Positions 16,576-62,444 of a DNA stretch of 64,000 nt are shown here, piece by piece. The stretch's first letter is position 1; each line of letters starts with the position of its first letter. The notes below the pieces were generated by a model. That model was given only the letters and a program-made list of their open reading frames with translations, ran no database searches and was not told the origin of the DNA. A program made the position numbers and the translations under genes. The stretch is from Marsupella aquatica (taxonomy: Eukaryota; Plantae; Marchantiophyta). The stretch covers positions 11,968,238-12,032,237 of the forward strand of contig OZ316892.1 of the NCBI GenBank assembly GCA_973895155.1, written 5' to 3'.

Positions 16576-16771
16576 GTCCTCACTTCGCTCGTGAATCTGC
16601 CACCGGAAAGGCGGAGGAGAGAGCGAGTGGGACTGCACAATCACCCTTTCTCCAGGATTTGGGTTCGTAGGGTGCCGTTTTCTTCGAGTATGCGCTTTGC
16701 TCCGGTGAGGGAGGATCGCAATTTCAGTTCTGTATCATCCTTGACGTTTCCAAGCTGACGGTAGACGCAGC

Positions 16772-32700: not shown

Positions 32701-33900
32701 TGCAGCTGAAGACTATTTCCGAGACACAGGTCTGTCATCTGATTATGCTAATGTGACGACTAAATGTGTTTACTTACTATACCTGCCATCAACATTTAAA
32801 ATACGATGATTGAATTTGTACTTCACTTTCTCGTCCAATTTCTCCTACGAACGCTAAGTGCAAATGTTGCGCAGGACCAAGCTTTACTGACATATTTAAG
32901 CCGGAGATGGTCTTACCGTTATTGGATTCAAGAAGTTTAAAAGAGCGACTTGTCCCTCTTCTTCCGGAGGTGTGTAGATTTTGTTTTAGAAGCGTTGTAT
33001 TTTTCCCCACGTATAAACTGTCTAATGAAAGCAAGTGGAGTCTAAAGAGCGGTGACGGCCAGTATTTTAATACTTGGGTGGCAAAACGGTTGTTGGAGGT
33101 TCAGATCTCTCAATTAAATTATTCTCATACATGTCCGTTGTAGGGTGTGGAAACTCCAGAGGCTCTTGGGGACCTTATGCGGAGTCCTCAATTTCAGCAA
33201 CAATTAGATATGTTTGCTCATGTATGTCCATTTCTTCCTCACTGCTTCTTCCCGTTTATTTTGCATTCGATTTCATCTTGGGGATAGTTTTGGAGTTATT
33301 TTTTGGTTTTGTTCATGGCATTGATCTTGATCTCTTTCCGTTGAACTATTCATACTTCTGACTGCGATGCTCCTTTCGTTCAGGTGTTAAGGAGTGGCCA
33401 ATTGGACTGGGCTCAATTTGGCATCAATCCGAGTAACTGTAGGTTTCTTTGATCCATACTCATTGATAATGACGGTCGTTTTCTTGATTTTCCCTCTTTT
33501 TGTTGAAGTCTTATGCCACTGTTTCTGTTTCAGTACGTGTAAAGTTGAGTACTCTTGCAATAGTGACTTTTGAGGTTGGTGTTGTGAATGCACTATTGCA
33601 GTTTATATGCGTAACTGAGAAATATCAGGCCAAACAGGGAAAAACAATCGTGAATTAGAGGTTTTTGTGTTTCGTCTATGGCGCATCTGAACTTGGGCAT
33701 TTGGCACATGTGCAGATAACTTCACTGTTTCTTCTTTCTTGGAGGCAATTGAAGACCAAACGATAAGTACTTCAGAGTCCAATTCTCCATCCACTGCACC
33801 CAAGACTGACAAAAAGCCTGAGAATGAGCACGATAGCGATGGGCAAAAGGATGATAAAAGGACTACAAAAGACAATGACCTCATGGAAGAAGGGTTGTAA
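29749..33900 (+). CDS. RPN13: 26S proteasome ubiquitin receptor RPN13 (Pru and DEUBAD domains)
   Basis: Exons 29749-29805, 30251-30343, 30628-30687, 31161-31199, 31336-31410, 31739-31805, 31926-32007, 32184-32296, 32706-32729, 32875-32969, 33144-33221, 33384-33438, 33716-33900. Pru motifs [61 protein letters not shown] motifs [32 protein letters not shown]. Probable 5'-UTR exons end near 28953 and 29242. Confidence 0.94.
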
Positions 33901-39886: not shown

Positions 39887-41422
39887 ATGACTACTGCCAA
39901 CGCCATGAATCGCAATATTCCTGCACTGTCGTCATATCGATGGTCATGCGATGATGAATCACAAAGAGTCGCAGTCGAGAATCCGGCAACGGGCAAGGTC
40001 CTGACCGTAGTTCAGGCCGGAAATGCGTGCACGGCCAGCAAAGCTATTGAAGCTGCACAGAAAGCCTTCGAGACAGACTGGCGCTGGCGAGCTCCTTCCG
40101 AACGGTCCGCCTTGTTACTCCGCTGTGCCGATGAACTGGAAAAGCATAAAGATGAGCTCGCAGAGCTACTCTGCTTGGAGAACGGGAAACCGAAACGAGA
40201 CGCCCTGGGCTTTGACATTTCCTTTCTCGTAGGGGCTTTTCGATATTTTGGCTCTCTGGTCGACAAGCTCCCGACACAATTCTACGACCAAGGAGCATTT
40301 TATTGTGCGATCGTATACGAGCCTTTTGGAGTGTGTGCCGGCATTTTGCCTTTCAATTGGCCGCCAATCCACACGGGAGGCAAATTAGCGCCATGCCTCG
40401 CTGCTGGCAACACCATGGTTCTTAAGCCAGGCGATCAAGCGCCTCTCACCGTCATGAGGATTGTCGAAATCGTCAACACCGTCCTCCCACCAGATGTTGT
40501 CCATGCGGTACCCGGTGTCGGCCCGGAGGTTCCGAACGCACTTGTCACTCATCCTCTTGTCAAGAAGGTGTCCTTCACTGGCTCCACTGCCTCAGGGGCT
40601 GCCGTAAGCAAGAGCGCGGCTGCAACAATCACTCCCTCAACATTGGAATTAGGTGGTAAGAATGCTTTCATCGTCTTCGATGACGCCGACCTCGACCAAG
40701 CCGTTCGGGACGCGCTGGCTGGCGCTTTCTTTAACAAGGGCGAAGCCTGCACGGCCTCGTCACGGATGCTCGTCCAGGAGGGGATCCACGAACGCTTCGT
40801 CTCAAAGCTCTCCGCAGCTGTACTGAAGCTGCGGGCTGGGAATGGGCTCGACGATGGCACGCACATTGGACCGTGTGTATCTCTAGCTCAGCAGCAGAGA
40901 GTCCTGAGCTACATCAAATTGGGCAAAGAGGAAGGAGCAGAGATCTCTGCACAGGCAGAGCTACCTCGCGATCCCGATTGCAGTAAGGGATTCTTTGTCC
41001 CGCCTACGTTGTTCACAAACGTGACGAGGACGATGAGAATTGCGCAAGAAGAGATGTTCGGGCCCGTGGCGACAGTCACGCGCTTTGCTACGGAGGAGGA
41101 GGCCCTCTCCATTGCGAATGAGTCGCGTTATGGGCTGGTGGCCGCGGTGTACACTGGAAATCTGGAGAGGGGCCTTCGATGCGTTCGAAAGATTGACGTA
41201 GGGTTGGCGTTTCTTAATAACTACCACAGACAGCTTTTGGGAACGCCGTTTGGAGGTACGAAGGACAGTGGCTATGGGAGAGAACATTGCATTGAAACTC
41301 TTCATGACTGGACGACGGCTAAGAACATCCGCATTCCCTCGGGATTGGGGGAGAAGCCGCGGGCTTGGAAGGCCGTGGTAGACATCTTCGGGGAGGAGGG
41401 AAGCGAAGTCAAGGCATCGTGA
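39887..41422 (+). CDS. NAD(P)+-dependent aldehyde dehydrogenase; intronless, fungal/actinobacterial type
   Basis: Single 511-codon ORF from ATG 39887. ALDH motifs: ENPATG, PFNWP, APCLAAGNTMVLKP, SFTGSTASG, catalytic Glu in TLELGGKN, catalytic Cys in FFNKGEACTASSR, EEMFGP, PFGGTKDSGYGRE. Confidence 0.95.
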   Translation: MTTANAMNRNIPALSSYRWSCDDESQRVAVENPATGKVLTVVQAGNACTASKAIEAAQKAFETDWRWRAPSERSALLLRCADELEKHKDELAELLCLENGKPKRDALGFDISFLVGAFRYFGSLVDKLPTQFYDQGAFYCAIVYEPFGVCAGILPFNWPPIHTGGKLAPCLAAGNTMVLKPGDQAPLTVMRIVEIVNTVLPPDVVHAVPGVGPEVPNALVTHPLVKKVSFTGSTASGAAVSKSAAATITPSTLELGGKNAFIVFDDADLDQAVRDALAGAFFNKGEACTASSRMLVQEGIHERFVSKLSAAVLKLRAGNGLDDGTHIGPCVSLAQQQRVLSYIKLGKEEGAEISAQAELPRDPDCSKGFFVPPTLFTNVTRTMRIAQEEMFGPVATVTRFATEEEALSIANESRYGLVAAVYTGNLERGLRCVRKIDVGLAFLNNYHRQLLGTPFGGTKDSGYGREHCIETLHDWTTAKNIRIPSGLGEKPRAWKAVVDIFGEEGSEVKAS

Positions 41423-41945
41423 TAATTAAGGACTTTGCAGTACATGCGATCTAACTATCCTAAATTCAACATTGTACAGAGGCAACGCGTCTTAAAAAAT
41501 CTTCTACATTACTGATCTCAGATTGCAACAAGGCCAATAAACTGAAATCGATCAGTGCCTTTGTCCTCGACATGTGCAAAATTTTCATAATTTCTAGGCT
41601 GTACACATTCCAGTATTTACTGAAAGTATGATGCTCCTTTAAGACACTTCGGGAAAGCTAAGTGTGATGTCAATAAGCTTTAGCTTCTCCCACATGAAGG
41701 GAGTTCTCAAAGCAAGCGTCAGCAGCTTGTCGGAAGGTTCATCGATTTCGCCTGATCGGCGTCAAGGGCGCTATAGCTCTTTAGACTTCACTAGTACTCC
41801 TAGCAATCGACTCCAGAGTCTCGTATCTGTTCTCTGCTAGCTTGGCGACGCTAAACAGTCAACAAGGTTTCGGAGCTAGTAATCCCAATGCTATACTATA
41901 AAGATTATCAGCCAGCTTGGACAAAATAAGCTTGCTTCGGTCAAA

Positions 41946-42260
41946 TCATGCAGCCTTAGCAACAGTCGGAAACCATATTCCTGCAGCATCAACCGTATTA
42001 ACAGGCACAGTCTTAAACATCAACTTGGCCTGCGGTGCACTCGTTCGCACGATGTCCATAATCTTCTCCATAAAGTGCGTCAAATCCATCTTGCTGCGGA
42101 TCCCATTGCCTATGACGACTGCGTCGGGACGCTGCAATTCCAATTTCGGGCTGCAGTGAGGCCAGGCCTTCCTCGGGCAACTCTGGCTCCAATTCACACT
42201 AGATGCCGCATCGGCAATTTAAGCGGGCACGTCCGCGAGGCCCTTGGCAATAATGAGAAG
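41946..42260 (-). pseudogene. Frameshifted third copy of the 130-aa unknown protein
   Basis: The C-terminal half is intact (PKLELQRPDAVVIGNGIRSKMDLTHFMEKIMDIVRTSAPQAKLMFKTVPVNTVDAAGIWFPTVAKAA). The upstream homologous part (IADA..GI*CE..EEGLA) has stops and frameshifts and no in-frame ATG. Confidence 0.88.
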
Positions 42261-42274
42261 TTGAATCTTTGCAG

Positions 42275-44795
42275 AGCGAAGATGCCGTGGATTTTGTTTC
42301 GAGCGTTGAGACGTATGGGTGGATTTTGTTGAGTGCCGTAACTCTCGACGTCACACCGGAGGGAAGTATTAAAAGTGATGTGGGCATAATTGATCATACA
42401 TGTATACATCGTAAGAGCGAAAGAATTCCAAAACCTTAGAGGGTTCCGAAGGAGCGAAGCCAGGGGAAGATTGACAAGCACCAGGAATAAGAAAGGTCGC
42501 TGGAAGTATCGAGGGAACCTTTTGTTGTTTGCCAGGTCCACAATTTCACCTTATATTTTGATCTTACTGAAAGTAAACAAGCATGAATGTTGTCACATCT
42601 AACAGCAAGTTAGCTATGTCATATCGCGAGTACATTCTGACTGTTGGACTTCATTTGACTGACGAAAACGAATTCTTTCAGCACTGACTCTCTTCTCAAA
42701 ATGAATGTTCCGTGATGTGGTATTACATTCATCGTCTCACGGCGCTGATTCAACAGACCTGCTACCCTCCTCCCGGCATTCCTGCTCAACGAAAAGTCGG
42801 CCGAGAGCATTCTGTAGCGGCCATACTCCCAACTCGATCACTAAGTGTCATTGGCTACTTCGAATCGAGCGCATTCAGATGACTGATTGCCCCAGTTTTG
42901 TCTGGCCACTGCAAAACTTTCTATTAATCCTGCAAACTGATTACCAGTTTGAAGCACATTTCGAAGGCAAGTTAAATTTGATTGACAGAAAACTACGACA
43001 TCAATCAGCTTCAACGATGTCTCCCTCAATTTCCAATAACGTTCATCGTTCTAAAGATAGTTTTTCGTTATTTCCAGTTTTGATTTCTTAGCTCATTTTG
43101 AGTTTTGTTTGTTACTCTCATGTTTGGCTAACGTTTGTCTAAGAGAATTTTAGGAAACGCATCTTTTGTGGCACTCAAAACTTGATCAGCTGCGTATCAT
43201 TGAAACCATTCAAAGGTGTCTATTTTATTTTGGTTCGTACTTGTGACTGCAATGCTATTCGTTGAGCAACCGTACTTTCTGAAGTACCTTCTCAACAAAC
43301 AGGGGAGACGGACTTGAATTGAGAAAGCGAAGGAGAATTTTGAAGATCACAGAACGTAGAAGGGGCCACTTTATATCGATTCGTCAACGTGAGCTGAAGA
43401 CATTCTTTTCATGATAACCTATGTAGCAATCCACTTCCGAGTGTGATCTCTGTTCCCTGAAATGTCCTGGCTTCTTCAACGCTAAACAACAAGGCTTCGA
43501 AACGAGTAAAGCTATCCATCGACTTCCGAGTGCGGTCCCTCCCCTCTGTAAAGAACTGGCATTTCTCGCCACAAGGTTTTGAAAGAGTAATCTACACTCT
43601 GTCCTACAGCAATACTATCCCTTCGGCGACAATCAAGCATCCGACAAAACATCCTACTCTGTACAGCAATATTCAGCCAAGCTTGAACAAAATCAAGTTG
43701 CTGTATCCAACTCATGCAGACTTGGCAGCAGTCGGAAACCATCTTTTCACGGCATCAACCGAATCCGCAGGGCTAGTATTGAACAGCAACTTGGCCTGTG
43801 GCGCACTCGTTCGCACAACTTCAATAATCTGCTCCATGAAGTGCGTCAATGCCATCGCACTACGGATGCCATTGCCGATGATGACTGCGTCGAGATGCTG
43901 AGACTCCAATTTCGGGCCGAGAGCGGCCAGACCTTCCTCGAGATCCACTGCCACGAATTCGTACTCGATCCCCGCATCGGCCATCTGAACTTTCAAGGCC
44001 TCTAGTAAATTGGCAATAACAGGTTGCACGTGAAGAGGAACCACACTATTCTTGGGTGACAAACCGATCAACACCGCACGAACAGGAGTAGCAGAGGATG
44101 CCATGTCGGGTAGCAGAATCGAGGAAGGAAGGGCTTTACTTTGTTGAACGATGAGACTCTCACAATTGGTACAGTAGTGGGACTAGGACGAGAAGCATAA
44201 AGAATGAAGACTTGTTCCCATTGATCGGTATGATTGAAACCTTACAGAGCATATATATTGAGAAGACCGAAAGCATTCTAATTAGCTCCAAACCTATACG
44301 CGAACATTCCACTGTCAACGAGACATTACCGTTACCTAATGGAGAACGGCAGGTGGAAGCTGCGCAGAGGGACAGCGCAATGGTGTGTAGAACTTTCAAC
44401 CAGAAAAGGTGGAAACAGACATTCTGGCAACAAAACAAGGAAAGATCAGAGGAAGGACGCTTCTCCAGTAAATGGCTCCCACCGAAACGCACCACGTAAG
44501 TTCAGGATTTCCTGAAAGGTTTACTCTCAGTAATCAGGGAAGTATACCTTTCAACAAAACGCTGCTGCAATCATGACCCATTTTGCATCGAGAGCACTCA
44601 ATCGGACTGCAAGAATCAACCGGACAGACGAACAGAAACACAGGTTTGAGCAATGACGCACTTGTCGGCATTAATTTTCCCCGTGACGTGTTGCTCATGT
44701 CAGTATGTCACCCTATCCCATGGCGCTGTTAGCAAACAGACACGATGAGCTTAGCTGGCTTCTTGGTAGGTGGAATCTCCGAAGTAGTTTCCTCC
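42275..44795. repeat. Local segmental duplication, block 1 (paralog of ~50308-53000)
   Basis: Collinear shared blocks: GAAAGAATTCCAAAACCTT, TGTTGTCACATCTAACAGCAAGTTAGCTATGT, GGGAGACGGACTTGA, the small gene, TGGCAACAAAACAAGGAAAGATCAGAGGA, GCAAACAGACACGA.GAGCTTAGCT. Confidence 0.9.
43712..44104 (-). CDS. 130-aa protein of unknown function (small alpha/beta fold; microbial-type family), copy 1
   Basis: Intact intronless ORF with good ATG context (ACATGG). 79% identical (103/130) to 51563-51955 with the frame conserved. Motifs DAVIIGNGIRS and APQAKLLFNTSP.DSVDAVKRWFP. Confidence 0.88.
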   Translation of the reverse strand: MASSATPVRAVLIGLSPKNSVVPLHVQPVIANLLEALKVQMADAGIEYEFVAVDLEEGLAALGPKLESQHLDAVIIGNGIRSAMALTHFMEQIIEVVRTSAPQAKLLFNTSPADSVDAVKRWFPTAAKSA

Positions 44796-44984
44796 CCGCC
44801 TTCCAGTTCAGCCAAAATGCCGAGAGTACTGTCGAGCTACCACACAATTTACTTAAATCTGGTCAACTATAATAGGGCGTCTTAAATATGTGTATTTTGC
44901 GAGCGGGACCACCCCCAAGAGTGTCATGGGTCGGGCACCAAATGTCACGCCTGACCAGTCATGCCCGAGATTTAGTGTCTGGTA

Positions 44985-45231
44985 GGAAAAAGGCCCGTTG
45001 AAAAGTCGACCAAGCTCTGTCGTTGCCCCAAGGGGTCTCGGCATAGGGGTGACCAAAGCCAAGTAAACGGCCTCGACGATTTTAAGTTAAAAAGCTTATA
45101 GTCACCAAAAAAAGTGGGGTAACCAATGGGGTTCCAAGATGCAAGGAGTAAGACAAAGGCCTATTGAAAAGTTGGCCAAGCCGTGTCGTTGCCCCTAGGG
45201 GTCTCGGCATTGGGGTGGCCAAAGCCAAGTA
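44985..45231. repeat. Direct repeat pair (~80 bp), probably TE subterminal sequence
   Basis: AAAGGCC..TTGAAAAGT.G.CCAAGC..TGTCGTTGCCCC.AGGGGTCTCGGCAT.GGGGTG.CCAAAGCCAAGTAA at ~44988 and ~45156. Confidence 0.75.
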
Positions 45232-45954
45232 ATCAAACATGCATGGGTTTGGGGGCAAGAGACACAACTCCTAGAAGCGGGAGGAATATTGCCAAGTCCG
45301 ATGGGTGGGTCAGAGGAGGGGGCCTCTATAGGATGTATCCTTGATGGATATTGGGCTCCTAATATCTCATGTCTCTTGCAATGGTGTGGGCCAACCGGCA
45401 TTCAACTTACTTAGGGTCTATTGAGTTTGGAATTGGGCATGTAAATTTGAATGACTAACAATATATGTGAGTTGGATGCAGACAATGGATTATGGACAGG
45501 AATATAGAGTAATTAGGGGTTTTTTTGTTGTTGAGGGGACTCTTGTCAACATGCCTCCTCCTGACCAGGTATTGGCAGCTTGGCGTGAGAGGTACGCCAA
45601 AAACAAAGATACCATAAATCAAAGGTGTCGGGAGAGGCAAGCTCAATGTCGGCAACAACAAAATGGGGTGCTTGGAAATAATGGAGGGACTGTCGGGGCT
45701 CCAATTGATGGGGTTCGGGCAGAAGTGAGCACTCAACCAAACTTGGTGGCGCGCGCCAATAGTGGGAGATATCCGGGGGATATAGCTTTGTTGTGAGGCT
45801 CGAGGTCAAGGGCAAGCATTGGAAAGACCCCGTACCATTTCCAATAGTCGTGTCGGTGATCCAAACACATTGGTCCTTCAACCCATGGTTCCCTGTGACC
45901 CACATGTATTCGATGAAGGATTGATGGCTCATTCAAGGTGCTTTGGATGAAAGT

Positions 45955-46340
45955 GCCGACATGACATCTTTTTTCTCAACCACATCTTGGCCAACACATC
46001 ATCTTTTTTTTCAACGACCTCTTGGCCGACATGACATCTTTTTTTTCAACGACCTCAAGTTGGCTAAGACGACATCTTCTTTCTCAATGACTTCTTGGCC
46101 GACACGACATTTTTTTCTCAACCACATCTTGGCCGACATGAAATCTTTTTTCTCAACAACCTCAAGTTGGTTAACACGACATCTTCTTTCTCAACGATTT
46201 CTTGGCCGACACAACCACATCTTGGCCGACATGACATCTTTTTTCTCAACGACCTCTGACTTGGCCGACACAACATCTTTTTTCTCAACCACATCTTGGC
46301 CGACACGACATCTTTTTGTGCAACACACAGGTATTGAGCT
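45955..46340. repeat. Degenerate minisatellite TTTTTTCTCAAC(C/G)AC..CTTGGCCGACA(T/C)GACATC
   Basis: About 10 units. Reverse-complement relative of 12435-12775, with a shared flank (CACACAGGTATTGAGC). Confidence 0.8.
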
Positions 46341-47057
46341 AGTTGCCTATAATACCTGCACTTGAGGGTGGATGTTTCCATATTACCAACTGTTGGGACA
46401 CCGTCAACCTTACCCATAGCTGATGCTACATTGAATGCAGTGGGCCCCAAGTCTTGCTTACATAGAGCACATTTTTGTCCCAAATTTTAGACCACCTCTC
46501 TTGGAGGTTTCTTCTTTTGGCCCCTTGGTACATTCCTAGTTTGAGTGATTTGTATTAAATGTGAGCTCACAAGTGCTTCATAATATCAACTGTTGTAAGG
46601 GCTAGAAAGACTCTAGCCAAAGAATACCATTAAGGTGGAGTGGGTCCCTACCCTGTCTTTTAGCAATTACAGTGATTGAGGATATATACACTCCACTCCA
46701 ATTACCACTCCAATTACTAGCACGCGTTAAATCTACGATGTATTAGGGGATGTATTAAGACCCTCCAAGATGCCGGGCAAGTCGTACACTGCCCGCGCCA
46801 CTCCCAATGCTGCCTGCCCGTTGTACCACCCAATGACAGGTTATGTTTTACCACCGCCCCACATCTGATTAAAGACAAAAGCCAATCTCGAGGATAATTA
46901 ATGCTAATCCGCATTAATTACCCCATCAATGCTGCCCGCTGCTCGTATGTACTACGTCTGATTTTAGGATAAATACCTGGTGTGAAGGATTGTTGTCACA
47001 AATTGTGGAGAGACTCAATGGTAGCACAGCTCAGTTAGGGATTGGGAGGTCCCAGGT

Positions 47058-47535
47058 TCAAAACCAGTTGTGTCAAAGAATGTTTTTTAACATTCACCCC
47101 ACCCAAAAAGTGGGGATCATTCACGCTACTTACATTCAAAAAAAATGTGAAGGGGCGGGCAGTAGGCGTGGGCAGGTGTGTACCCAAGGCTCTTAATGAG
47201 CCTCGAGATTGCCTTTCGTCGCGAATCACATCTGTCGACAATGAAAACTTTTCATCCAATTCAAATTGCCAATAGTGCGGGTACAACACCCAGCGCTCAA
47301 AACCAGTTGTGTCAAAGAATGTTTTTTAACATTCACCCCACCCAAAAAGTGGGGATCATTCACGCTACTTACATTCAAAAAAAATGTGAAGGGGCGGGCA
47401 GTAGGCGTGGGCAGGTGTGTACCCAAGGCTCTTAATGAGCCTCGAGATTGCCTTTCGTCGCGAATCACATCTGTCGACAATGAATACTTTTCATCCAATT
47501 CAAATTGCCAATAGTGCGGGTACAACACCCAGCGC
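47058..47535. repeat. Near-perfect 239-bp tandem duplication behind a SINE-like head
   Basis: 47058-47296 and 47297-47535 differ at one position that I could see. They are preceded by GACTCAATGGTAG...GAGGTCCCAGGTTCAAAACC (A/B-box-like). Confidence 0.92.
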
Positions 47536-48361
47536 ACAACCATCTTGCACTAGCACCCACACTCGCCCTACATTGTCCATGACAGCCTGGGCAGAGTTTG
47601 TGCAGAGAAGTACATGCACGGATTTCTATGTGGAGATACTGACCAAGATCTAGGATAGCGGTGGTGAGTTTCACTCAAGAAACACAATTTTTTCCAACAT
47701 TGCTATATGGTGAATCTTTGTTTCAGTCTTCCTAGTTCATTTTTGTTTTGTCATTATTTTAATTTTAATTTGACCTATGAGGGCTGTCTTCTTTGTTATT
47801 CCATCAGTTTTGAATTTATCTCAGACCCCCTATATGTTTTTGTTATTTCAAAATCCTTTGTTTTTCTTTTTTGCACTTGTACACCTTTCCACAATTCTTA
47901 TATAATTTTGCCTTTCAAAATTATCTTGATGTAAAATAATTGTTACTTGCAGGGCTCAAACCCCCAACCCACCAGATCCCGGACAAGGCCACCACCACTG
48001 TGCTACAGTGGTTGTGCTGCACATTAGGCTTCTGACATGATATTTATTATTTAAATTACTTAAATTTATAAATTCTATGGCTTGTACAATGCACGCTGTC
48101 TATGAGCCTCTATTTCTTCACAATAAATTCATTTCTGTACTTGTATTCAAATGATTACTTTAATAGACTCAAATATGATATGATAAGATCATTTTTACAT
48201 CATTTTCAATAAGTTAAAATAGCAAAGTGTTAGAACTGTGTAGCTATATGGAGTGGTGAGTGGGTGTGCACGGGCTTGGCATTGACATGAGATTTGCCAT
48301 CAATCGCAAGCCAACATTGTTCTCTTGGTTTGTACTTCCGGTGGGAGCTGTGAGCTAGCGC

Positions 48362-48978
48362 GTCTTTCAACTACGAATGCGGCACTTTGCTATAAGGTTT
48401 CTATGGCACTTTTGCGTCCTTGCAATCTAGCAGTGATTCCTTTGAGGTTTAAAGGTTTTACGCACTGCCTGCCTTCGTTGCTTGAAGGTCCAGGGGGGTT
48501 TATGTTTTGTCATAGTTGTTTACATTTGCATTTGGTTTTCCACAACCGTAGATTAAGGTTCATATGAGGTTGGGCATGATTCTTGAAGATTCTAGGTTTA
48601 TAGATTCGTTGCTGGAGTATTGAATGATCTGTGTCATGTTGGATTGCTTGTGGTTTAGGGGTTTATGAACTGTCTGCCATTGTTGCTTGAAGGCCCACGA
48701 GGGTTTATGTTTTGTCATATTTGTTTGCATTTGCTACCGGTTTTCCACTGTTAAGCTTAGTTGAAGGTTAAATTGCATATGAACCTTAAATTAAGCTTGT
48801 GGAAAACCAAATGCAAATGCAAACAAACATAACAAAACATAAACCCTCTTGGAGCTTCAAGCAACAACGGTAGACAATGCGTAAACCTTTAAACCCCAAG
48901 GAATCACAGCCAGATTGAAAGGAGGCAAAAGTGCCATAGAATGCTTACAGCAAAGTGCCGAGTCCGCAGTTGAAAGTG
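48362..48978. mobile_element. Foldback / MITE-like element
   Basis: 48362-48565 pairs with 48777-48978 (GGCACTTTGCT..CTATGGCACTTTTGC..GTTGCTTGAAG..GGTTTATGTTTTGT..TAAGGTTCATATG versus its reverse complement). An extra partial direct copy is at ~48640-48750. Confidence 0.8.
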
Positions 48979-51562
48979 CTCTACCCTAAATCTTGATTGG
49001 CTGAACTTTAAGTTCAGCTTTGTGGTGGGGGCCCGAAAATGACTCTAAACATTTTTTCTGCACATACGTTTCTCCGCATACGATTGTGTGCATACTATTC
49101 TGAAAAATACAAGATACCCTCTCCAACAGTCGTTAAGTCCTTGTTAATAGGTATTGAAGTATACCTATTAACAATATACTATCAATGCCCCTCTTAGTGT
49201 ATACTACCATCAATGGCTCACTCATACTTTATTCTCTCCAACTGGGGCTCCAACTTTCAATGTGGTTGTTTTTTCTTTTTTCTTTTTTCTTCTTTATTTT
49301 TTAATTTCTTTTTCCTTTGGGTGGATCGAAATGGGTCACCTGTGACACTCTTTTCAAGAGGCTGAATAAGAGGGGCAACTCTGTTTAAGGGACCTTTTTG
49401 TGTGGGACCATTCCATGTATTTGCTTATCCTTGTTTTAATTTTATTCTTTTTTATTTCTTTTTCCTTTGGGTGAAATGGGTCACCTGGAAGAGGGACTAC
49501 AATTTTTGAAGGGGCTAAATAAGAGGGGAGGAATAAAAAGGAGGGGAGGAACAATTGTTAATAAATTAAGAAGTTTTATTCTGCACCTGGAAAAATGCTT
49601 CCAAGCTCTTTTCTCCGCAGACTATCTTCACAAAAATAACTTATACTCTGTCCCTCAACCAAGTATAGTTTATGCATTTTGGGTACATAATACCTTCAAG
49701 AATGTAATCCATGATAAGATCCTATTACCTGCTAATTGTTTACATGGTTGTGAATTATTACCATGCTTGTATGCCGAGTGTTAGATATAAAATTGAAAGA
49801 TCAAAGAGGACAATAAAGTGGGGTGAAAGCTTTAAGGTTTACCAAATGTGTGTTCAAATTGTTGTCACTCTTTAGTCAATTTGGTTCCAAATCCGAGTGC
49901 ACTACAAAATAAGTTGTTAAAGAATGAGTTGACAAATGTTTTGATGCAAAGAACCAATCCTCTAAGATAGAGGAATTCATTTTTCAAGTATTCCCGAAAA
50001 ACCAAGAGTTATTTTAGAGGACAATGCAGGGCGCACTGGGGGGGGGGGGGGGGGTTGCCGGCCAATGCCAGATGGCTGTGCGCCAGGTGTTGTACCCGCA
50101 CAAGTTTTCATTGTAAAGGGATGTGGGGTCGTGGCAAAACATTAACCGTAGTTGGGTGGTGCAGCGGGCAGGCAGCATTGGGAGTGGCACAGGTGGTGTA
50201 AGACTTGCCCGACAGCTTGGAGGGTCTCATTGCGGCATAAATTAACGTGCAATTCAACATAGTGCGAACCGGAGTAGCAAGAGGTTGCCACATTGGGTAC
50301 TAAATCGAGGCAAAGATGCAGTGAATTTTGTTTCGAATGTTGCGACATATCAGTGGATTTTGTTTGATGCTGAGACCATCAACCTTACACCCGAGGGAGA
50401 CTAAGAACATAAGTGTAAACAATGACTTGTGTGGCATGATTGATCATACATATATGCTCCGTAAGAGGGAAAGAATTCCAAAACCTTGGAGGGAACCGAA
50501 GGAAAGAAACCAGGGGAATTTTGGGAACCGACAGTAATAAGAAAGGCCGCTGGAAGTACCAAGGGAAACATCTTCTCTTGAATGTACAATGGAGTAGATT
50601 GAAGACAAAACAAGGAATGGTGAGAGGAAGGAACGTACTGACCATATATTATCATGATTGTAGGGCTGGACCGCACCGTTTGTAGTTTGCCATATCGTTA
50701 TTGCAGGAATGGACCACACCTTGTGTTGTTTGCCATATCGTTATTGCAGGAATGGACCACACCTTGTGTTGTTTGCCAGGTCCGAGATTGCAGTATGTAT
50801 ATTCATTTTACTGAAATGTAAACTAACCAGCAGATGTTGTCACATCTAACAGCAAGTTAGCTATGTTGCATCGCAAGCACTCATTCTAACTATTAGATTC
50901 AATCTGACTGACGAAAAGGAATTCAGGTTTGAGCACTGACTCTCTTCTCAAACTGACTATTCCGTGGTGTGGTACTAAATTCATCGTCCCACGGAGCCCA
51001 TCCAAACAGACCCCGTACCTTCCTCCCCGCCCTTTCTGCTCAACGAAAACTCCGCCGAGAGCACTGTCTAGCACTTGGTGGCCGCAATGCCACTGCGGTG
51101 AGCAAAACTACTTTCTGAACTACATTGCTTAAAAAACAAGGGAGACGGACTTGAGAAATCGAAGAAGATTTTTGAAGTTCACAGAACGTAAAAGGGGTCA
51201 CTTTATATCGATCCGTCACCGTAAGCTCAAGACATCCTTTTGGTGATAATCTATGTAGCAATCGACTTCCGAGTGTGGTCCCTGCTCTCCTGCAACATCC
51301 TGGCATTTCTTGCCGCTTCGACGCTAAACAATGAAATTCTGAAACGAGCAATTTACAGCCATCCATCAACTTCCCCGTGTGGTCCCTGTTCTCTTACAAT
51401 GTACTGGCATTTCTCGCCGCTTCGACGCTAAACAACAAAGTTCTGAACGAGTAATCTACACTCTATCCTACAGCAATATTATCCCTTCAGCGACATCCGA
51501 TAAAGAATCCTACAGCAATAATCCGCCAAGATTGAACAAATAAACTTGCTGCTGCATCCAAA

Positions 51563-51955
51563 TCATGCAGACTTGGCAGCAGTCGGAAACCATCTTTTCA
51601 CGGCATCAACCGAATTGTCAGGCCTAGTATTGAACAGCAACTTAGCCTGCGGCGCACTCGTTCGCACAACTTCAATTATCTGCTCCATGAAGTGCGTCAA
51701 TTCCATCGTGCTGCGGATCCCATTGCCTATGACGACTGCGTCGGGATGCAGAGACTCCAATTTCGGGCCGAGAGCGGCCAGGCCGTCTTCGACAGCCACT
51801 GCCACGAATTCGTACTCGATGCCCGCATCGGCCATCTGACCTTTCACGACCTCTAGGAAATTGGCAGTAATAGGTCCCAAGTGAGCAGGAGCAACAGCAA
51901 CCGTGGGTATGAAACCGATCAACACAGCACGAACAGGAGTAGTAGATGATGCCAT
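51563..51955 (-). CDS. 130-aa protein of unknown function, copy 2
   Basis: Intact ORF MASSTTPVRAVLIG...DAVVIGNGIRS...APQAKLLFNTRPDNSVDAVKRWFPTAAKSA; paralog of 43712-44104. Confidence 0.88.
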   Translation of the reverse strand: MASSTTPVRAVLIGFIPTVAVAPAHLGPITANFLEVVKGQMADAGIEYEFVAVAVEDGLAALGPKLESLHPDAVVIGNGIRSTMELTHFMEQIIEVVRTSAPQAKLLFNTRPDNSVDAVKRWFPTAAKSA

Positions 51956-52684
51956 GTCCGGTAGCAGAATCGAGGCAAGAAGGGTTTTACTTTGTTGAGT
52001 GCTGAGACTTTACACAATTGACATTGGAGTGAGACTAGAACGAGAACCGAAAATAATGAAACGGACTTATTCCAATCGATCCGTATGATTGATATCTTAT
52101 AGAGTACATACACCTAAACTACCGAAGGCATTCTAATCAGCTCCAGATACTCCTATTTGCGAACATTCCCCAGTCAAGGGGATTACCGATCACCTACTCC
52201 AGAAGGGTGGAAGCAGCGTCCGAAATTCCGAATCGAGGTGTAGAACTCTCAACCAGAAAAGGTAGACATAGAGAGACTGGCAACAAAACAAGGAAAGATC
52301 AGAGGAGGGACGCTCCTCAAGTAAACGGCTCCCAACGTACCACGTAGGTTGAGGCTTCTGTGAAAGGTGGAAGGTATACTCTGATCAGTGATCACGCAAG
52401 TATACCTTTCGACAGAACTCCGCTCGTCAATGAGCTAACGACGAAACGCTGCTTCGATTGCCTGTTTTGCATCTAGAGCATTCATTCCGACTCCACGATT
52501 CAACCGGACTGACGAACAGCAACACACAGGATTGAGCACTGACTCACTTGTCGGCACGATTGTGCCCGACACATACTACTACTCAAGTCACCCTGTCCCT
52601 TACTCAAGTCACCCTGTCCCTTGGCCCTGATGGCAAACAGACACGACGAGCTTAGCTTGCATTTTGCTATGTGGCACTTCCTAA

Positions 52685-52968
52685 TATAGCATGCTCATAC
52701 TGGAACATGCTTGATATTTTGTCTTGTAGTGATATGTAAATGGATAAAATACAAGAGTAAAATTATAATACATATTAAGTGTGATAAATCTAAGAGGGCT
52801 GCCAAAATGAGTTCTAAATTCTGTAAGATACCAAAAATTAAAGGGGTCCAAAATTTAATTTAAAATCTGCATGATGCAAAGAATGCCCCTTGATAAGGCA
52901 CATTCAAATAAAAATAGATGACACAAAAATATGAATAAGACCAATGTCACCATAGAGCAGCTTCAGAA
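52685..52968. mobile_element. Long-target-duplication element, copy A (284 bp)
   Basis: TATAGCATGCTCATACTGGAACATGC...CACCATAGAGCAGCTTCAGAA, flanked by a perfect 21-bp direct repeat TTGCTATGTGGCACTTCCTAA (52664-52684 and 52969-52989). Confidence 0.85.
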
Positions 52969-56818: not shown

Positions 56819-59800
56819 TCATTCTTTTGCACCCAATGCCAAACTAGGCCCGGGACCAGCCCTAGGAAGTCTTTGAGTTACTCCTTGCTGACTTGATGCG
56901 CTAGCTGGCATGGAGGAACTTGATTCTAGTCCAGGGGTTGCAATGTAGCCAGCAGCTGGAGCAGACTGTCCAGTTGGTCCAAAGGTGAACACTGCAGGTC
57001 TTGGTTGCGCTCCTAAATTTACTGAATGTGATGAGGTTTTCGGGTATGCTGCTGCTGCTGCTGATGATGAAACTGTTGACTGCAGCTGGCTAACACTTGA
57101 AGCGGAGCCTAGACGAGATGCCATAATTCGGGCTCGTTCAGTATAGACTTTCGCCCGAGCTTTTTCAGCTTGCTCACATTCTTTCCCCAGCAATGATTCC
57201 AGCTCACTAAATTGCTTCAACTTCAATTCTAGCTTCTTCAGCTGCAATAAATCCACAACAAGTAGTATCAAAATAGTGCAATTCAAGAAAAAATCCTGGC
57301 ACATTGTAAAATCAATTAAGCTAACCTGATTTGCTACAGCTCTCGCCACACATATCTCCAAGAGAAAATGTTTACAGGGCTTCATTTCATCTATTATAAA
57401 AACAGATTGGGAAGTATAGTCCATCTGGATCGCTAGGAAACCTCGAGGACTGCGCAGTCAGAGAATTCTGCGTAGATGCTCAACGAATCTCAGATTGGCT
57501 AAATCTCTTCAGAAGTCTTCTTTTAAATGCTCACGATGACTGCAAAATCAAAGTCCAGTTCTAAAGGACTAAGTTCAAAGATAGATATTGATCACTTCCC
57601 TGACTGCCTGCCTCAAAGTGCTTAAGTTTTAGTCAGGAGCATACCTCCAAAGGAAATGTCCCTTTAATAGGTCATAGGATGGTTCCTCACAAACCCTTCT
57701 AGGCGCAGTTGGTATTTAAAAGTCTCAGCTACCTCTCGCTCCGGGTGTAACTTACAGGTGTACAATCAATTTGGAGACACACTCGAGCAGCTATAGGTTT
57801 GAGAGCATCCCTGAGACTCGTTAGCTAAAGCACTCTGTCCAGGATTGAACCCATTTCCCAACCCATCGTAGACAGGACAGAAAGAAAAACTCTGAAGCAT
57901 TCTAGGAGATACGTATGTGTTCAAACCCAGTCACTATTCTTACTCTTCTACCATATGGTAGATTTATGCCAACGTGAAGTTTAAGATCCCTGTGGCTCCT
58001 TAGCTAAAGCACTGTGTACAGGATACAAACCCATTTTTCAATCCATCATAGACAGGGGACAAAGGAAAAATCTGAAAAATGTCAGGAGATGACTAAAAAA
58101 ACTCTAGAACCTCTCAGCAGGTGACTGTATTTAAAAAACCATGTTACTATTCTTACTCTTCTACCACATTACAGATTGATGCCAACGTTAAGTTGAAGTA
58201 CCTGATTCTCAATAACACCAGCCACAAGTCGCTGTATTTCTCGTTCTTCTTGGTCAGCAAGAAGCTTTGCTTTCACTGCAGCCGAGGCTAGTGCGTTGGC
58301 CGCAGCAGTCCGAACTTTGGCTATGGACGGCATATCTTGCTCTGCAACTAGAGAATTTGTGGAGGCATTTCCTTCCGACTTTTGAGCAGTCTTAGCTTCT
58401 TGACCTGCAAACGATTCTTTCACTGATGATAGGCAAGGAGATTGAAAACAAGAATCACCAACAACGCAAAATATTGTCACAGGCCATTTTGACCGACATT
58501 TTACCTGCAACTTTCTCCAGAGTCCCCGCTGCCACCTTCTCATCGGCAGTTTTCGTTATTGCCTCCTCTGCTCCTTTTGAGGTAGACTTGCTGTCGGAAG
58601 CCACTGTGGGGCCCTCAGTAGAGCTCACCAATGACATTTCAGTTGATTGCTGTCCACTGGATCTAGAAAATTTCACAGACAATAAAGTCTTAGTACAAAT
58701 AAGATAAGACCGGACAGACTAATGCCAAGAGTTCAACACTAAATAAAACGTCAGCTTTAGCTCGTGACGCCTGACTAGATCAGTCTCCATATCAGGACGG
58801 TCAGGCGCAGCGGCTTGCACATAAGCTTCAGCCTAGCATCTTGCCAGCAGCGCCCAGGATTTATTCTCTTGTTAAAGGCTAACAAGACCATGAAAGGAAG
58901 GCGATATAACCTTTCGAGACAACCAGAAGCCAAAGTCGTATCGTTAGTGGCTGAACCATCTAGAGCAAAGGAGTTCTTCACAGACAGAAAACCGACAGGA
59001 TCATCTTCAGCCAAGGACTTCAAAGCTGCCTGTGCTGCAGCTGCTGCCACACGTGGACCAACCATCGCCGCAAGAAATGCTACCTGCAAAGACAAGCATA
59101 ATTAAAAAAAACAACTTGAGATCCATCCGGACGTAGGTCCTAAGCAGACAGTGACTTACGAGAAGGGAGAAAATATGAGCACCGTCGAAAAAGACCCAAC
59201 CGGGTGAAAACCTTTGCAATTTTGTCATTCAAGAGCTAACATTGATCTTTAAACGGGGCATTAGACTGAAAGACAATGTTACCTGTGTCATGACGGGGTT
59301 GCCGGCATCCGCAAATGCAATTAAACCATCGGGTCCAGCACAGCCTGCGCTTTCAGAGGCAGCAAAGAGGGGATGCACATCGCTGGAATCTTTAACCTTA
59401 CTAACTACTTTGGATACATCAGCCTCGTCTTTTCCCCCTTTTTTTGGTGAAGATGGCTCAATCCCTTCCGTCCTAGTCTCGGCTGGTCTGTCTTTCTTTC
59501 CTGTTTCTGTTAGGGCAGAGGCATCCTGCTCAAGAATTGATGAAACAGCCTCAACAGATTCACTTAATGAAGGATGTTCGTTGTCAGCAGTTCTAGCTTG
59601 CGCAACTTTGTCCTTTGGAGGAGTCGTGTTCTGATTGTCAGACACGACTGTGGCAGGAGGTCGAACTGTCAACACGGTACTAGATGCTTCCATATCTTCC
59701 AAGAATGGGTCTTCTATTGGTAAGCGAATAAAATGTAAAATGCACTGAGCCTTCGATTTTGTGGCCACATGCTCTGCTATTTCAGTCCAGTTATCACCAT

Positions 59801-62444
59801 AAAGCTCCAATGCCTCAAGTAGCAACAGAGTTTCTTGATCTGACCAACCACCACCATTAACATCTGCAGTCTCTGACAACGCATCCATACGGAGAAAATC
59901 TGTTCCTGACATGCCGTGCCCAAACTTCCCATCATTGTAGCAATCTGGACAAAGGTCAAAATCTGCCTGCACAAGTCCAAATAGGTTGGCACCATGAAGT
60001 AGTTAGCCGTTCAGTTCCAGCCACTGAAGGACCAGTCTTAGAAGATTGACAACTGCTCCAACGCCAGTAGTGTTCACTGATTTTCTCCATCATTCAAGTT
60101 TTTCATTAAACAATGCTGAACCATCCTTCGTAAGAGATAATCTGGTGTTAGCTCCTTCGTTTCCGGAAAGTAATTACGAGAACAGATTGAATGTGAAACA
60201 GATCCTCGTACTTTGACTACCACCCATGTCATGTTAGTTCAGGTTGGAACCTTGACATGATGTATTTGTTGTTGACCCCCAGCTTCAATCAGAGGGTAAG
60301 TGTTATTGGATTGTTTTGTCAATACTTGGGAATCCAGACTGACATGGTTTGGTGGAACCTTAAGATGTAACTGTGAGCGAGGATGAGAAAGGAAAGAAAT
60401 TTCACAAGAGTCTCTCTGTTGCAGCCAGAAATTTTCTTAGAGTCGGTACAGCATAATGTATGAAAACTACCGTTTGAAATTCAGAAAGGACGTCTAACAG
60501 GAGAAAAATGTATCTCCACACGTTGGCACCCAAAGTTCATTAATTTCCGGTGACAGATGGAATCAGAATCAAAAGAACTTACAGCAGAAAGGGTCTCATG
60601 GATCAAAACTTCCTCTTTCCTGAAATCGTGGAGATGGATAACAACATTAATTTTACCTAAGCCAACAGCATGCCATCCTTCAGCCAATATCTGGTAGATA
60701 GTTTGAAACTGACATTGACCTAACCTCAGGTTGTCAATTCGTTTCGGTTGAACATAGAATTATCCAGCATCACCTCTGTAAGCTTGTGCCTTCTTAAAAG
60801 AGGCACATATAGCGATCATGTGAGTTGTTGTTTACTTTCCTGCTTCAAGAGAAGTAGATTTGTGGAAAATTTGAGCCTAGCTGAGATTGACTGGATTCAA
60901 TTTCATTTCTTGGTAGAGTATTTGTTGTGTTGCGTGCAGTGGACTTGATAGTTACACACTCACCTGCTTTTGGCAGTGATATCGTCGCTTAGAACAGTCG
61001 GCTTGACAAGAGTTGCAATGGTACTCAACGGCAGGAGCTGCCAAAGATTCTTGAACTGAAGCTTCTGCTAAACTCGATATAGGCAAATTGCTCGCAGGAC
61101 TAGGGGAAATGGCGAGCGGTTTATGTGCAGGTGCCAGGGCAGGGGCCTCGAAATTGAACAAGTTGGCCAAAGCTGGTTTCACCGGAGGACTAGCTGACAA
61201 TGCACCATTACTTGTTTCTTCTAGTCTGCCCGACGGTCCTCTTGATAAAAATGGGGAGAAATCGGTGATGGCCTGATAATTGATAAGACCCCAGTGATCT
61301 AAAAATCCGAATAGACGAACCGCACCACTCACATCACCGGTGAGCAAATCTCTCACATCTTCGAACTTCAGCAGCTTTTGAGGGTTCTCTCGGTACTTTT
61401 TCATTATGCAAGTTCTCTGCTCTATGTACAGTTCCGCCGTCTTCTTGTTGGTGTCCTTCGCCACAAAATATTCCGGAAGAGCAGCTCGTTCTAGCTGATG
61501 TACTCTCTCCCACTGAAACCAGCCTGCCAAAACCCTCAGAATAATTATAACCAGAAGGACGAGATGCATGTCTGAACATTGTATCCTGAGCGACACAACG
61601 GGCCCACAGTGGAGTACCACTACAGCAACTCACCGGCGTGACTCGGGACGAGATGCGGTGTTGCCGACGACTGAGCCTCACAATCTTTGGTCAGAGCCAC
61701 GGCCAGTCCAGAGGTCTCGGGAGGAGGCTTAGCCCGAAACGGGCTTTCCTGTCCATATGACACATTCTCCACAACAATGGGAACTCTGTTTTGAAGTGCA
61801 TCGACATCCTTTTCAAATCTCAATCGGGCCGACTCTTCGGGACCTAGCTCCTCATTTTGTCCCGAGGCGGGTTGCTTGCTGCTGGCACGAGCGTCGCCTG
61901 CGGGTGGAAACGATTTCCCTGCCACAATTTTCCTCGGGGGGGCTCCCTCCACAGGCTGCTGCTCACTACTCGAGGGTTTTGGCAATTCCGCTTCCTCCGA
62001 TGCCCTCTTCTTACTCGGCGCAGGCGATTCTGGTGGAGTAGTCCGCTTCCGCTTGAGCAAGCCCATTGCAGCAGGAGCAGGAGCAGCTCCTGCTGCCCCC
62101 TCGCCACTCTCTCCCCCTGCGACTGCTGCTGCTTGAGCCGTCGACGATTTTCCTTGTCTCGCCGGCTTCACGTTACCACCTGCACATCACCACCATTCCG
62201 CACAACACACAAGCATCAATCGCACGCTCTGCCTCAGCACTCCGCTCCTCTCGACACAATCCATCATCGAGAAACGCATCAGCCACGCCACGGAATGCCA
62301 TCCCAAGCCAAGCCGACCAGTCAACAAGAACAATACCATCCATCTTTCTCATTTATGCAGCTTCCACCATCTCCTCGCCCTCCCAGCAGAGACCCACCGA
62401 CCTGCGACTACTGACCTCTGCGGCGGGACCATCCGTTTATCCAT
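56819..62444 (-). CDS. SWI3D: SWI/SNF chromatin-remodelling subunit SWI3D (SWIRM, ZZ zinc finger, SANT, C-terminal coiled coil)
   Basis: Minus-strand exons: 62444-62402, 62179-61634, 61523-60964, 59966-59283, 59083-58911, 58662-58505, 58404-58202, 57241-56819. [32 protein letters not shown]; [32 protein letters not shown]; [50 protein letters not shown]; [16 protein letters not shown]; [31 protein letters not shown]. Confidence 0.95.

What the first reader, a model, noticed from the sequence alone, without database searches (positions are those of the whole stretch)
39887..52000. Candidate horizontally acquired metabolic module: intronless microbial-type ALDH facing a triplicated 130-aa unknown protein
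Seen: every other gene here has 8 or more exons, yet the ALDH and the two intact small genes have intronless coding regions and are CpG-rich. The ALDH is tail-to-tail with the small-gene array, and the nearest (pseudogene) copy ends about 520 bp from its stop. Recalled, not searched: the ALDH signatures FNWPPIHTGGK, GAFFNKGEACTA and GREHCIETL..RIPSG resemble a subfamily I know from ascomycetes and actinobacteria rather than plant ALDH families. The small-protein motif D.V.IG.GIR...FE/ME..I..V...AP.AK..FNT.P..S.DAV.RW resembles an uncharacterised fungal/bacterial family. Inference: a co-transferred two-gene detoxification or secondary-metabolism unit, now domesticated. The island shares a mobile-element family with the plant part of the window (52685 versus 25982 and 63598), which argues against contamination.
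Basis: partly seen in the sequence, partly recalled or inferred. Interest (0 to 1): 0.85.

Follow-up and report, generated by a model that had tools for sequence, protein, structure and literature searches.

The report
Fungal aldehyde dehydrogenase in a liverwort
A plant genome, likely a leafy liverwort's, carries an intact aldehyde-oxidising enzyme gene that likely came from a fungus; it sits beside a small duplicated gene of an unnamed microbial-type family that probably arrived separately, so this is likely one more case of the gene borrowing already known in liverworts and mosses rather than a co-transferred two-gene module.

Summary
The genes are there as described. The 511-aa ALDH (39887-41422) is one intact ORF with all catalytic residues. 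It nests inside a fungal clade named after citrinin CitD/Mpl4 (100/99 support, AU p=0.011). Of its 120 best hits, 36 carry an organism name: 34 fungi, 2 bacteria, no plants. Contigs from runs of two studies cover it at the depth of the flanking plant genes, so contamination is unlikely, though no single piece bridges it to RPN13 or SWI3D. The 130-aa gene (two intact copies, a pseudogene, a remnant) groups with Calypogeia fissa proteins (99/97). It belongs to an unnamed flavodoxin-like family found in bacteria, archaea, amoebae and some fungi; its donor is unresolved. The module reading found no support: no ALDH of this subfamily in 68 homologue loci or 36 homologue-bearing prokaryote genomes, and no Calypogeia protein among the best ALDH hits. 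Fungal genomes could not be searched, so co-transfer is not excluded. Best reading: two separately acquired detoxification-type genes that became neighbours in a repeat-rich interval. The ALDH likely oxidises aromatic aldehydes using NAD+. This is a new member of a known kind.

The parts
39887..41422 (+). Intact single-ORF aldehyde dehydrogenase, 511 aa, of the fungal/bacterial subfamily whose members are named CitD/Mpl4; Asn157, Lys180, Glu254, Cys288, Glu389 and Phe391 present
41943..42250 (-). Pseudogene copy of the small gene: no start codon, N-terminus missing, two compensating 1-nt indels; stop 521 bp from the ALDH stop
43712..44104 (-). Intact small gene, copy 2: 130 aa, unnamed family, predicted flavodoxin-like alpha/beta fold
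51563..51955 (-). Intact small gene, copy 3: 130 aa, 79% identical to copy 2
43239..44773 (.). Duplicated unit (gene plus both flanks), 77% identical to 51073-52674
50228..51072 (-). Fourth remnant: copy of the pseudogene's 5' flank (42276-42818, about 80% identical), cut at the right end of the inverted-repeat element
44792..50227 (.). High-copy host repeats between copies 2 and 3, including an element bounded by 123-nt inverted arms (46758-46880 and 50105-50227)
52675..52757 (+). High-copy host repeat, also at 25972 and 63588; it begins right where the duplicated unit ends
29750..33900 (+). Left flanking multi-exon plant gene, read as RPN13 (name from recall; bounds approximate)
   Evidence: no Pfam hit on one 30-aa exon
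56819..62400 (-). Right flanking multi-exon plant gene, SWI3-type (SWIRM, Myb, SWIRM-assoc_1; bounds approximate)

Best explanation
An intact single-ORF aldehyde dehydrogenase gene, likely acquired from a Dikarya fungus, lies beside a duplicated 130-aa gene that likely entered the liverwort lineage earlier and separately, so the two are probably neighbours by insertion into one repeat-rich interval and not a co-transferred module. How the ALDH likely works: the standard ALDH mechanism (Cys288 attacks the aldehyde, hydride passes to the cofactor, Glu254 activates water), probably with NAD+ (acidic residue 183; rule recalled) and probably in the cytosol (only 7 residues longer at the N-terminus than its closest relative). 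The substrate is likely a bulky aromatic or ring-cleavage aldehyde, turned into the acid, either to detoxify microbial or the plant's own reactive aldehydes or to tailor a liverwort metabolite. The subfamily itself probably passed from bacteria to fungi first. The small protein is predicted to be a stand-alone flavodoxin-like domain with an invariant GxGxR loop, likely a small-molecule-binding or catalytic stress/detoxification accessory. It is kept by purifying selection in its core and was amplified by local duplication. Shown: ORFs, residues, tree positions, depth, and lack of co-occurrence in prokaryotes. Inferred: host lineage, direction and separateness of the transfers, substrate, and any function of the small protein.
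For: ALDH origin: 36 of the 120 best hits carry an organism name, 34 fungi and 2 bacteria, no plant. In IQ-TREE (61 rows) the window protein lies inside nested fungal clades at 100/99 (38 rows), 100/99 (35 rows) and 96/91 (26 rows), with the bacterial rows basal (the same in FastTree on 127 rows). Excluding it and P0010 from the fungal group is rejected, p-AU 0.011 (29 rows). Integration: in run X1 one 3202-nt contig with no differences spans 38920-42121 (ALDH plus the pseudogene of the Calypogeia-type family) at depth 16.4, against 12.6 at RPN13 and 14.4 at SWI3D. In X3 (another study, with many differences in the flanks) the ALDH contig is at 49.9, against 43-46 at RPN13 and 61-67 at SWI3D. 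Function: the catalytic residues are invariant in 71 of 71 rows, and so are the subfamily marks Trp158, His162, Arg448 and His467. The closest solved structures are 4o6r and gamma-hydroxymuconic semialdehyde dehydrogenase, which shares Arg448. CitD oxidises the C-12 aldehyde of a citrinin precursor to the acid (PMC5968754, passages). A Shinella plasmid member sits among TRAP, cyclase, amidohydrolase, CoA-transferase and VOC genes. Separate history: the small gene forms a clade with Calypogeia fissa (99/97), which has 6 listed proteins on two scaffolds but no protein among the best 120 ALDH hits. No co-occurrence in 0 of 68 loci, 0 of 5 plasmid loci and 0 of 36 genomes with a positive control. 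dN/dS is 0.32 for codons 42-130 of copies 2 and 3 (Fisher p 0.018).
Against: No listed contig bridges the ALDH to RPN13 or SWI3D, and X1 may be the assembly's own sample. The ALDH subfamily is rare in the bacteria sampled (0 of 401 in one order, only 3 candidates scored per genome), so its absence from 36 genomes says little about fungal donors, which could not be searched. Only 32 of 65 loci had at least 3 kb on both sides. Only 120 of 1334 ALDH hits were shown, and Calypogeia could have lost the gene. AU tests do not reject grouping the small gene with chytrids (p 0.29) or the Naematelia pair (p 0.32), only with the Athelia group (p 0.028). I did not compare the ALDH with Monascus CitD itself: the link rests on database names for four hits. 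The split at codon 41 was chosen after seeing the alignment.
Confidence: 0.7

Rival explanations
1. The two genes came together from one fungal donor as a detoxification unit, and the ALDH was later lost in Calypogeia (the first reader's module).
For: They are adjacent, tail-to-tail, single-ORF and CpG-rich. The small family occurs in some fungi, and a fungal donor for it is not rejected. Its prokaryotic neighbours are detoxification-type genes.
Against: No named ascomycete among the small protein's relatives, while the ALDH's named relatives are nearly all ascomycetes. No co-occurrence in 68 loci, 5 plasmid loci or 36 genomes. The copy next to the ALDH is the dead one.
Confidence: 0.1
2. The genes arrived separately, but their adjacency is now selected: a newly assembled, co-regulated detoxification cluster.
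For: Both look like stress or detoxification genes. The island is present in runs of two studies under two organism labels.
Against: The intact copies lie 2.3 and 10 kb from the ALDH, separated by high-copy repeats and transcribed convergently, so they share no promoter.
Confidence: 0.1
3. The small gene is an old eukaryotic gene kept patchily by vertical descent, and only the ALDH is a transfer.
For: It falls outside the main bacterial clade (100/98), in an unresolved group with chytrid, amoebozoan, archaeal and acidobacterial rows.
Against: Calypogeia is the only named plant, so many losses would be needed. The host copies are intronless and CpG-rich. This rival does not touch the ALDH conclusion.
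Confidence: 0.15
4. The ALDH is fungal contamination joined into the assembly.
For: The named best hits are fungal, and no listed piece bridges the ALDH to the flanking plant genes.
Against: Its depth equals that of host genes in runs of two studies, one contig joins it to a Calypogeia-type sequence, it is flanked by host repeats, and its closest relative is only 81% identical.
Confidence: 0.04

Closest known systems
CitD/Mrl4/Mpl4 aldehyde dehydrogenase of fungal citrinin biosynthesis (PMC5968754; passages seen)
   Same: Same ALDH subfamily by database names (P0021, P0030, P0033 and P0100 are named mpl4 or citD; 61-66% identical), with the same signature residues.
   Different: Here it sits in a plant genome with no PKS or other citrinin genes in the interval. 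It does not group with the Penicillium/Aspergillus subclade. Not compared with Monascus CitD itself; substrate untested.
gamma-Hydroxymuconic semialdehyde dehydrogenase (PDB 4go3/4go4) and ALDH 4o6r
   Same: Closest solved sequences (E 3e-105 and 7e-110), sharing the Arg at position 448.
   Different: Far more distant than the fungal subfamily (E below 1e-200); they lack the WPPxH motif and the C-terminal extension.
Fungus-to-bryophyte gene transfers: YANB, EUPF, RDS1, FB lectin (PMC12513842, section 8 read), MTPSL tandem cluster (PMC12890914, passages), BlaNAS (PMC12454661, passages)
   Same: Lineage-restricted, intron-poor microbial genes between plant genes, near repeats, often tandemly amplified; secondary-metabolism enzymes are among them.
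   Different: This ALDH subfamily and the 130-aa family are not named in the text seen. The HGT lists in Supplementary Data could not be read and may include them.
Plant ALDH families (14 families; PMC7823795, passages)
   Same: PF00171 domain and catalytic residues.
   Different: Plant members in the PDB score far lower (best ZmALDH, E 1e-95), and no named plant is among the 120 best hits. No tree with plant ALDHs was built.
SGNH/GDSL-like hydrolase BT3161 (PDB 4h08; SGNH label recalled)
   Same: Top hit for the small protein by Foldseek (E 7.9e-4, TM 0.54) and by HMM (E 0.0086); 2 of 49 members weakly hit Lipase_GDSL_2.
   Different: The small protein has no Ser nucleophile after strand 1 and no conserved C-terminal His, and is about 70 aa shorter.

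Membership tests
ALDH superfamily (PF00171) | Full-length profile match above the cut-off | tested here: met
   503.7 bits against a cut-off of 23
ALDH superfamily (PF00171) | Catalytic Cys, Glu and Asn; cofactor Lys, Glu/Phe and FTGS motif | tested here: met
   Asn157, Lys180, FTGST 230-234, Glu254, Cys288, Glu389 and Phe391; residue roles recalled
CitD/Mpl4-named fungal ALDH subfamily | Nests within the clade and carries its invariant motifs (NWPPxH, FNKGEACTA, NNYxR, GREH, PSG..W) | tested here: met
CitD proper (citrinin pathway) | Lies in a cluster with the nr-PKS CitS and tailoring genes | tested here: not met
   No such ORFs in 36-56 kb; the flanks are plant genes
CitD proper (citrinin pathway) | Oxidises the citrinin C-12 aldehyde | not testable with these tools
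   needs an enzyme assay
NCBIfam ALDH equivalogs (BADH, HpaE, HMSA-DH and others) | Score above the curated cut-off | tested here: not met
   0 of the 25 shown (45 matched) reach their cut-off; BADH 441 against 669
Vertically inherited plant ALDH families | Closest relatives are plant orthologues | tested here: not met
   0 plants among 36 named of the 120 best hits; a tree with plant rows was not built
Horizontally acquired, integrated gene | Host-like depth in independent samples and plant flanking genes | tested here: met
Horizontally acquired, integrated gene | A single molecule bridges it to a native gene | tested here: inconclusive
   Only short-read contigs, broken at repeats
Horizontally acquired, integrated gene | Expressed | not testable with these tools
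   no RNA run was available to lay
Co-transferred two-gene module | Homologues adjacent in prokaryotes | tested here: not met
   0 of 68 loci, 0 of 5 plasmid loci, 0 of 36 genomes
Co-transferred two-gene module | Homologues adjacent in fungi, the ALDH donor group | not testable with these tools
Co-transferred two-gene module | Both genes point to the same donor | tested here: inconclusive
   ALDH in Dikarya; small-gene donor unresolved, fungal donors not rejected
SGNH/GDSL hydrolases (small protein) | Catalytic Ser after strand 1 and a C-terminal DxxH His (features recalled) | tested here: not met
   Column counts over 98 rows show no conserved Ser or His there
SGNH/GDSL hydrolases (small protein) | Flavodoxin-like alpha/beta fold | tested here: inconclusive
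   Model pLDDT 93.5; 4h08 is top in Foldseek, but the VIA Z scores of 8-9.5 are ties among receiver and solute-binding domains

The most novel reading that the evidence does not exclude
A liverwort holds a working two-gene aldehyde-detoxification unit: a CitD-type fungal ALDH and a member of a wholly uncharacterised protein family that spans all three domains of life. The unit was either co-transferred from a fungal symbiont or assembled afresh from two transfers, and the small gene is diversifying at its N-terminal lid to handle different microbial metabolites.
Probability: 0.12. Interest if true: 0.7.

Novelty: new member of a known kind. Interest (0 to 1): 0.35.

Why it matters
It adds a fungal secondary-metabolism-type ALDH outside the 14 recognised plant ALDH families to the liverwort toolkit, with a likely bacteria-to-fungi-to-plant route and a simple enzymatic test. 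It also flags an unnamed family (1070 clusters at 50% identity, no Pfam or NCBIfam model) that leafy liverworts keep in tandem arrays. Transfer of microbial genes into bryophytes is, however, well known: about 229 per species on average in PMC12513842. The extra claim that would make this striking, a co-transferred module, was not supported.

Tried and rejected
No whole genome is held for the window, so other copies and synteny in the host could not be checked. No RNA holder was listed, which is no evidence on expression. The complex prediction of ALDH with the small protein gave no verdict (score 0.00, alignments not used) and is not counted either way. Contig-length matching between ALDH hits (131 lengths) and small-protein hits (46 lengths) found no coincidence; this is weak, since only the longest contig per cluster is shown. 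The ESM Atlas did not hold the window proteins; a homologue returned only 'hypothetical protein' clusters scoring under 0.9. Pfam and NCBIfam give no family for the small protein. The AU test joining the liverwort rows with all four named fungi (p 0.0003) was set aside because those fungi are not one clade themselves; the separate tests are used instead. Positive selection on codons 1-41 is not significant (dN 0.28, dS 0.10, p 0.07). The bacterial promoter/terminator scan is irrelevant to a plant and found nothing above chance. Literature: searches listed no paper on this ALDH subfamily in liverworts (listings and abstract starts only). The Supplementary Data HGT tables of PMC12513842 were too large to read, and Sun et al. 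2020 (New Phytol, title only) is not held, so 'not in print' is not established. Four look-ups of earlier scan findings returned nothing. Tree sampling: the small-protein trees left out rows under 100 or over 180 aa and most of P0200-P0293; the careful ALDH tree used 61 of 127 rows. Neighbour ORFs were called greedily, and 132 were scanned, most from the 213 picked and a few being the homologue ORFs themselves.
Full report
What is there. Between a multi-exon gene read as RPN13 (about 29.7-33.9 kb; name recalled) and a SWI3-type gene (SWIRM, Myb, SWIRM-assoc_1) lies one intact ORF for a 511-aa aldehyde dehydrogenase at 39887-41422(+). Facing it on the minus strand are a pseudogene ending at 41943, 521 bp from the ALDH stop, and two intact 130-aa genes at 43712-44104 and 51563-51955 that are 79% identical. 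Self-comparison shows a segmental duplication (43239-44773 against 51073-52674) and a fourth remnant: the pseudogene's 5' flank repeated at 50228-51072 and cut at an inverted-repeat element. High-copy repeats fill 44.8-50.2 kb. CpG o/e is 0.93-1.00 in the island genes and 0.42-0.80 in nine native exon segments. The host is likely a leafy liverwort, inferred only from land-plant flanking genes and from Calypogeia fissa being the closest named source of the small protein (61-66% identity).

Is it integrated? Five runs of three studies hold the stretch; four of them, from two studies, were laid. In X1, which may be the assembly's own sample, a 3202-nt contig with no differences spans 38920-42121 at depth 16.4, and overlapping pieces continue towards 45047; the RPN13 and SWI3D contigs are at 12.6 and 14.4. 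In X3, from another study and with many differences in the flanks (32 in a 1484-nt RPN13 contig), the ALDH contig has 1 difference in 1545 nt and depth 49.9, against 43-46 at RPN13 and 61-67 at SWI3D. A variant at 40699 is synonymous. No listed piece bridges the ALDH to either plant gene, because contigs break at repeats. Still, equal depth in two studies and physical linkage to a Calypogeia-type sequence make contamination unlikely.

Where the ALDH comes from. Of the 120 best of 1334 hits, 36 name an organism: 33 ascomycetes, Mycena and two bacteria; none is a plant. Four are named mpl4 or citD. The closest two hits are unnamed (81% and 70%). An IQ-TREE analysis of 61 rows places the window protein with those two (98/96) inside fungal clades supported at 96/91, 100/99 and 100/99, with Noviherbaspirillum, Saccharothrix and Shinella outside (one search agrees on 127 rows). 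Forcing it out of the fungal group is rejected (p-AU 0.011, 29 rows, three unnamed rows counted as fungal). The bacteria are basal, so a bacteria-to-fungi-to-liverwort relay is the simplest reading (inference). No NCBIfam equivalog cut-off is reached among the 25 shown, and plant ALDHs in the PDB score far lower; I built no tree with plant rows.

How the ALDH likely works. Asn157, Lys180, Glu254, Cys288, Glu389 and Phe391 are invariant in 71 of 71 aligned members, and the window protein departs from only four well-conserved columns, all mildly. It is therefore likely active. Asp183 keeps an acid at the cofactor site, which by a recalled rule favours NAD+. The invariant Trp158, His162, Arg448 and His467 mark the subfamily, and Arg448 is shared with gamma-hydroxymuconic semialdehyde dehydrogenase, among the nearest solved structures. 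CitD turns the C-12 aldehyde of a citrinin precursor into the acid (PMC5968754, passages). A Shinella member lies among genes I read as aromatic-acid catabolism. I infer oxidation of bulky aromatic or ring-cleavage aldehydes, for detoxification or for tailoring the plant's own metabolites. No PKS lies in the interval, so this is not a citrinin cluster.

The small protein. It has no Pfam or NCBIfam family, yet a profile finds 1070 clusters at 50% identity. Named members are bacteria of several phyla and Nitrososphaerota archaea, two chytrids, two basidiomycetes and two amoebozoans, and six Calypogeia proteins on two scaffolds, in line with that genome's recent duplication (10.1101/2025.04.01.646537, passages). 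No named ascomycete or other plant appeared, but most members are unnamed. The window copies group with Calypogeia and three Logan proteins (99/97). Beyond that the tree is unresolved, apart from lying outside the main bacterial clade (100/98). AU tests reject a place with the Athelia group (p 0.028) but not with chytrids (0.29) or the Naematelia pair (0.32). AlphaFold gives a confident four-stranded alpha/beta domain (pLDDT 93.5). The best Foldseek and HMM match is the hydrolase 4h08, but the Ser and His of SGNH hydrolases are missing, and the wider search gives only ties among flavodoxin-like domains. Gly14, Asp72, Gly77-x-Gly79-x-Arg81, Glu91, Phe108-Asn109 and Arg121 are conserved. Prokaryotic neighbours vary. 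Among 132 ORFs scanned, HxlR regulators recur in five Bacteroidota loci (related organisms, not independent), RibD_C in three, LysR in three, luciferase-like and ABM monooxygenases in two each. Fusions to glyoxalase and alpha/beta-hydrolase domains also occur. I infer a stress or detoxification accessory that binds or converts a small molecule. The core of copies 2 and 3 is under purifying selection (dN/dS 0.32, p 0.018); the faster N-terminus is not significantly above neutral (p 0.07; region chosen post hoc).

Is it a module? No ALDH of any kind was found in 68 loci around small-protein homologues (535,685 bases, with the window as positive control), although only 32 of 65 had 3 kb on both sides. 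None was found in five plasmid loci either. No member of this ALDH subfamily was found in 36 genomes that carry the small gene, while the Shinella control was positive. In the plasmid collection 2 records carry the ALDH and 13 the small gene, with none shared. Calypogeia has the small-gene arrays but no protein among the best ALDH hits, which run down to 59% identity. Against over-reading this: the subfamily is rare in the bacteria sampled, fungal genomes were out of reach, and loss in Calypogeia is possible. The module is unsupported, not excluded.

Comparison and verdict. Bryophytes average 229 acquired genes per species, which are intron-poor, near repeats, and include fungal secondary-metabolism enzymes in liverworts (PMC12513842, section 8). 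Tandem amplification after transfer is described for Marchantia terpene synthases (PMC12890914, passages), and a single-liverwort acquisition flanked by plant genes for NAS (PMC12454661, passages). Plants have 14 recognised ALDH families, with liverworts little studied (PMC7823795, passages). My searches did not list this subfamily in liverworts, but the HGT supplement that could hold it was unreadable. The finding is a real, probably unreported, fungus-derived ALDH beside an older array of an unnamed family: a new member of a known kind, interest 0.35.

Noticed in passing
window 37549-38130 (-): A 193-aa ORF with host-like GC and CpG and no Pfam or NCBIfam match, just left of the island; possibly a repeat-derived frame or an unknown gene.
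   Followed up: partly
window 42881-43107 vs 54990-55215, and 43338-43395 vs 55271-55329: Pieces of the island's intergenic sequence recur 3 kb beyond the last small gene, so the duplicated tract may once have reached further towards SWI3D.
   Followed up: no
window 34991-37145, 26306-27267, 48364-48976: Further elements bounded by long inverted arms (MITE or foldback-like); the 26.3-kb one is 95-97% complementary over about 310 nt.
   Followed up: no
window 16745-22623 (+) and 1-3960 (+): A multi-exon SBP-box plus ankyrin (SPL-type) gene, and a many-exon gene read as RCC1-repeat type from recall.
   Followed up: partly
P0006 (Calypogeia fissa): A 93-aa family member that starts at the Met equivalent to residue 42, the same place where similarity of the window's pseudogene begins; short forms may recur in these arrays.
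   Followed up: no
L009, L011, L012 (Nitrososphaerota) with P0187 (Bryobacteraceae): Archaeal and acidobacterial members fall among the eukaryote-like rows of the small-protein tree, not with other prokaryotes (100/99), a hint of repeated cross-domain movement of this family.
   Followed up: partly
P0210; L074 6395-7216: The small domain occurs fused to a YycE/glyoxalase domain and to an alpha/beta-hydrolase-fold protein; some members carry two copies of the domain (P0159, P0204, P0253).
   Followed up: partly
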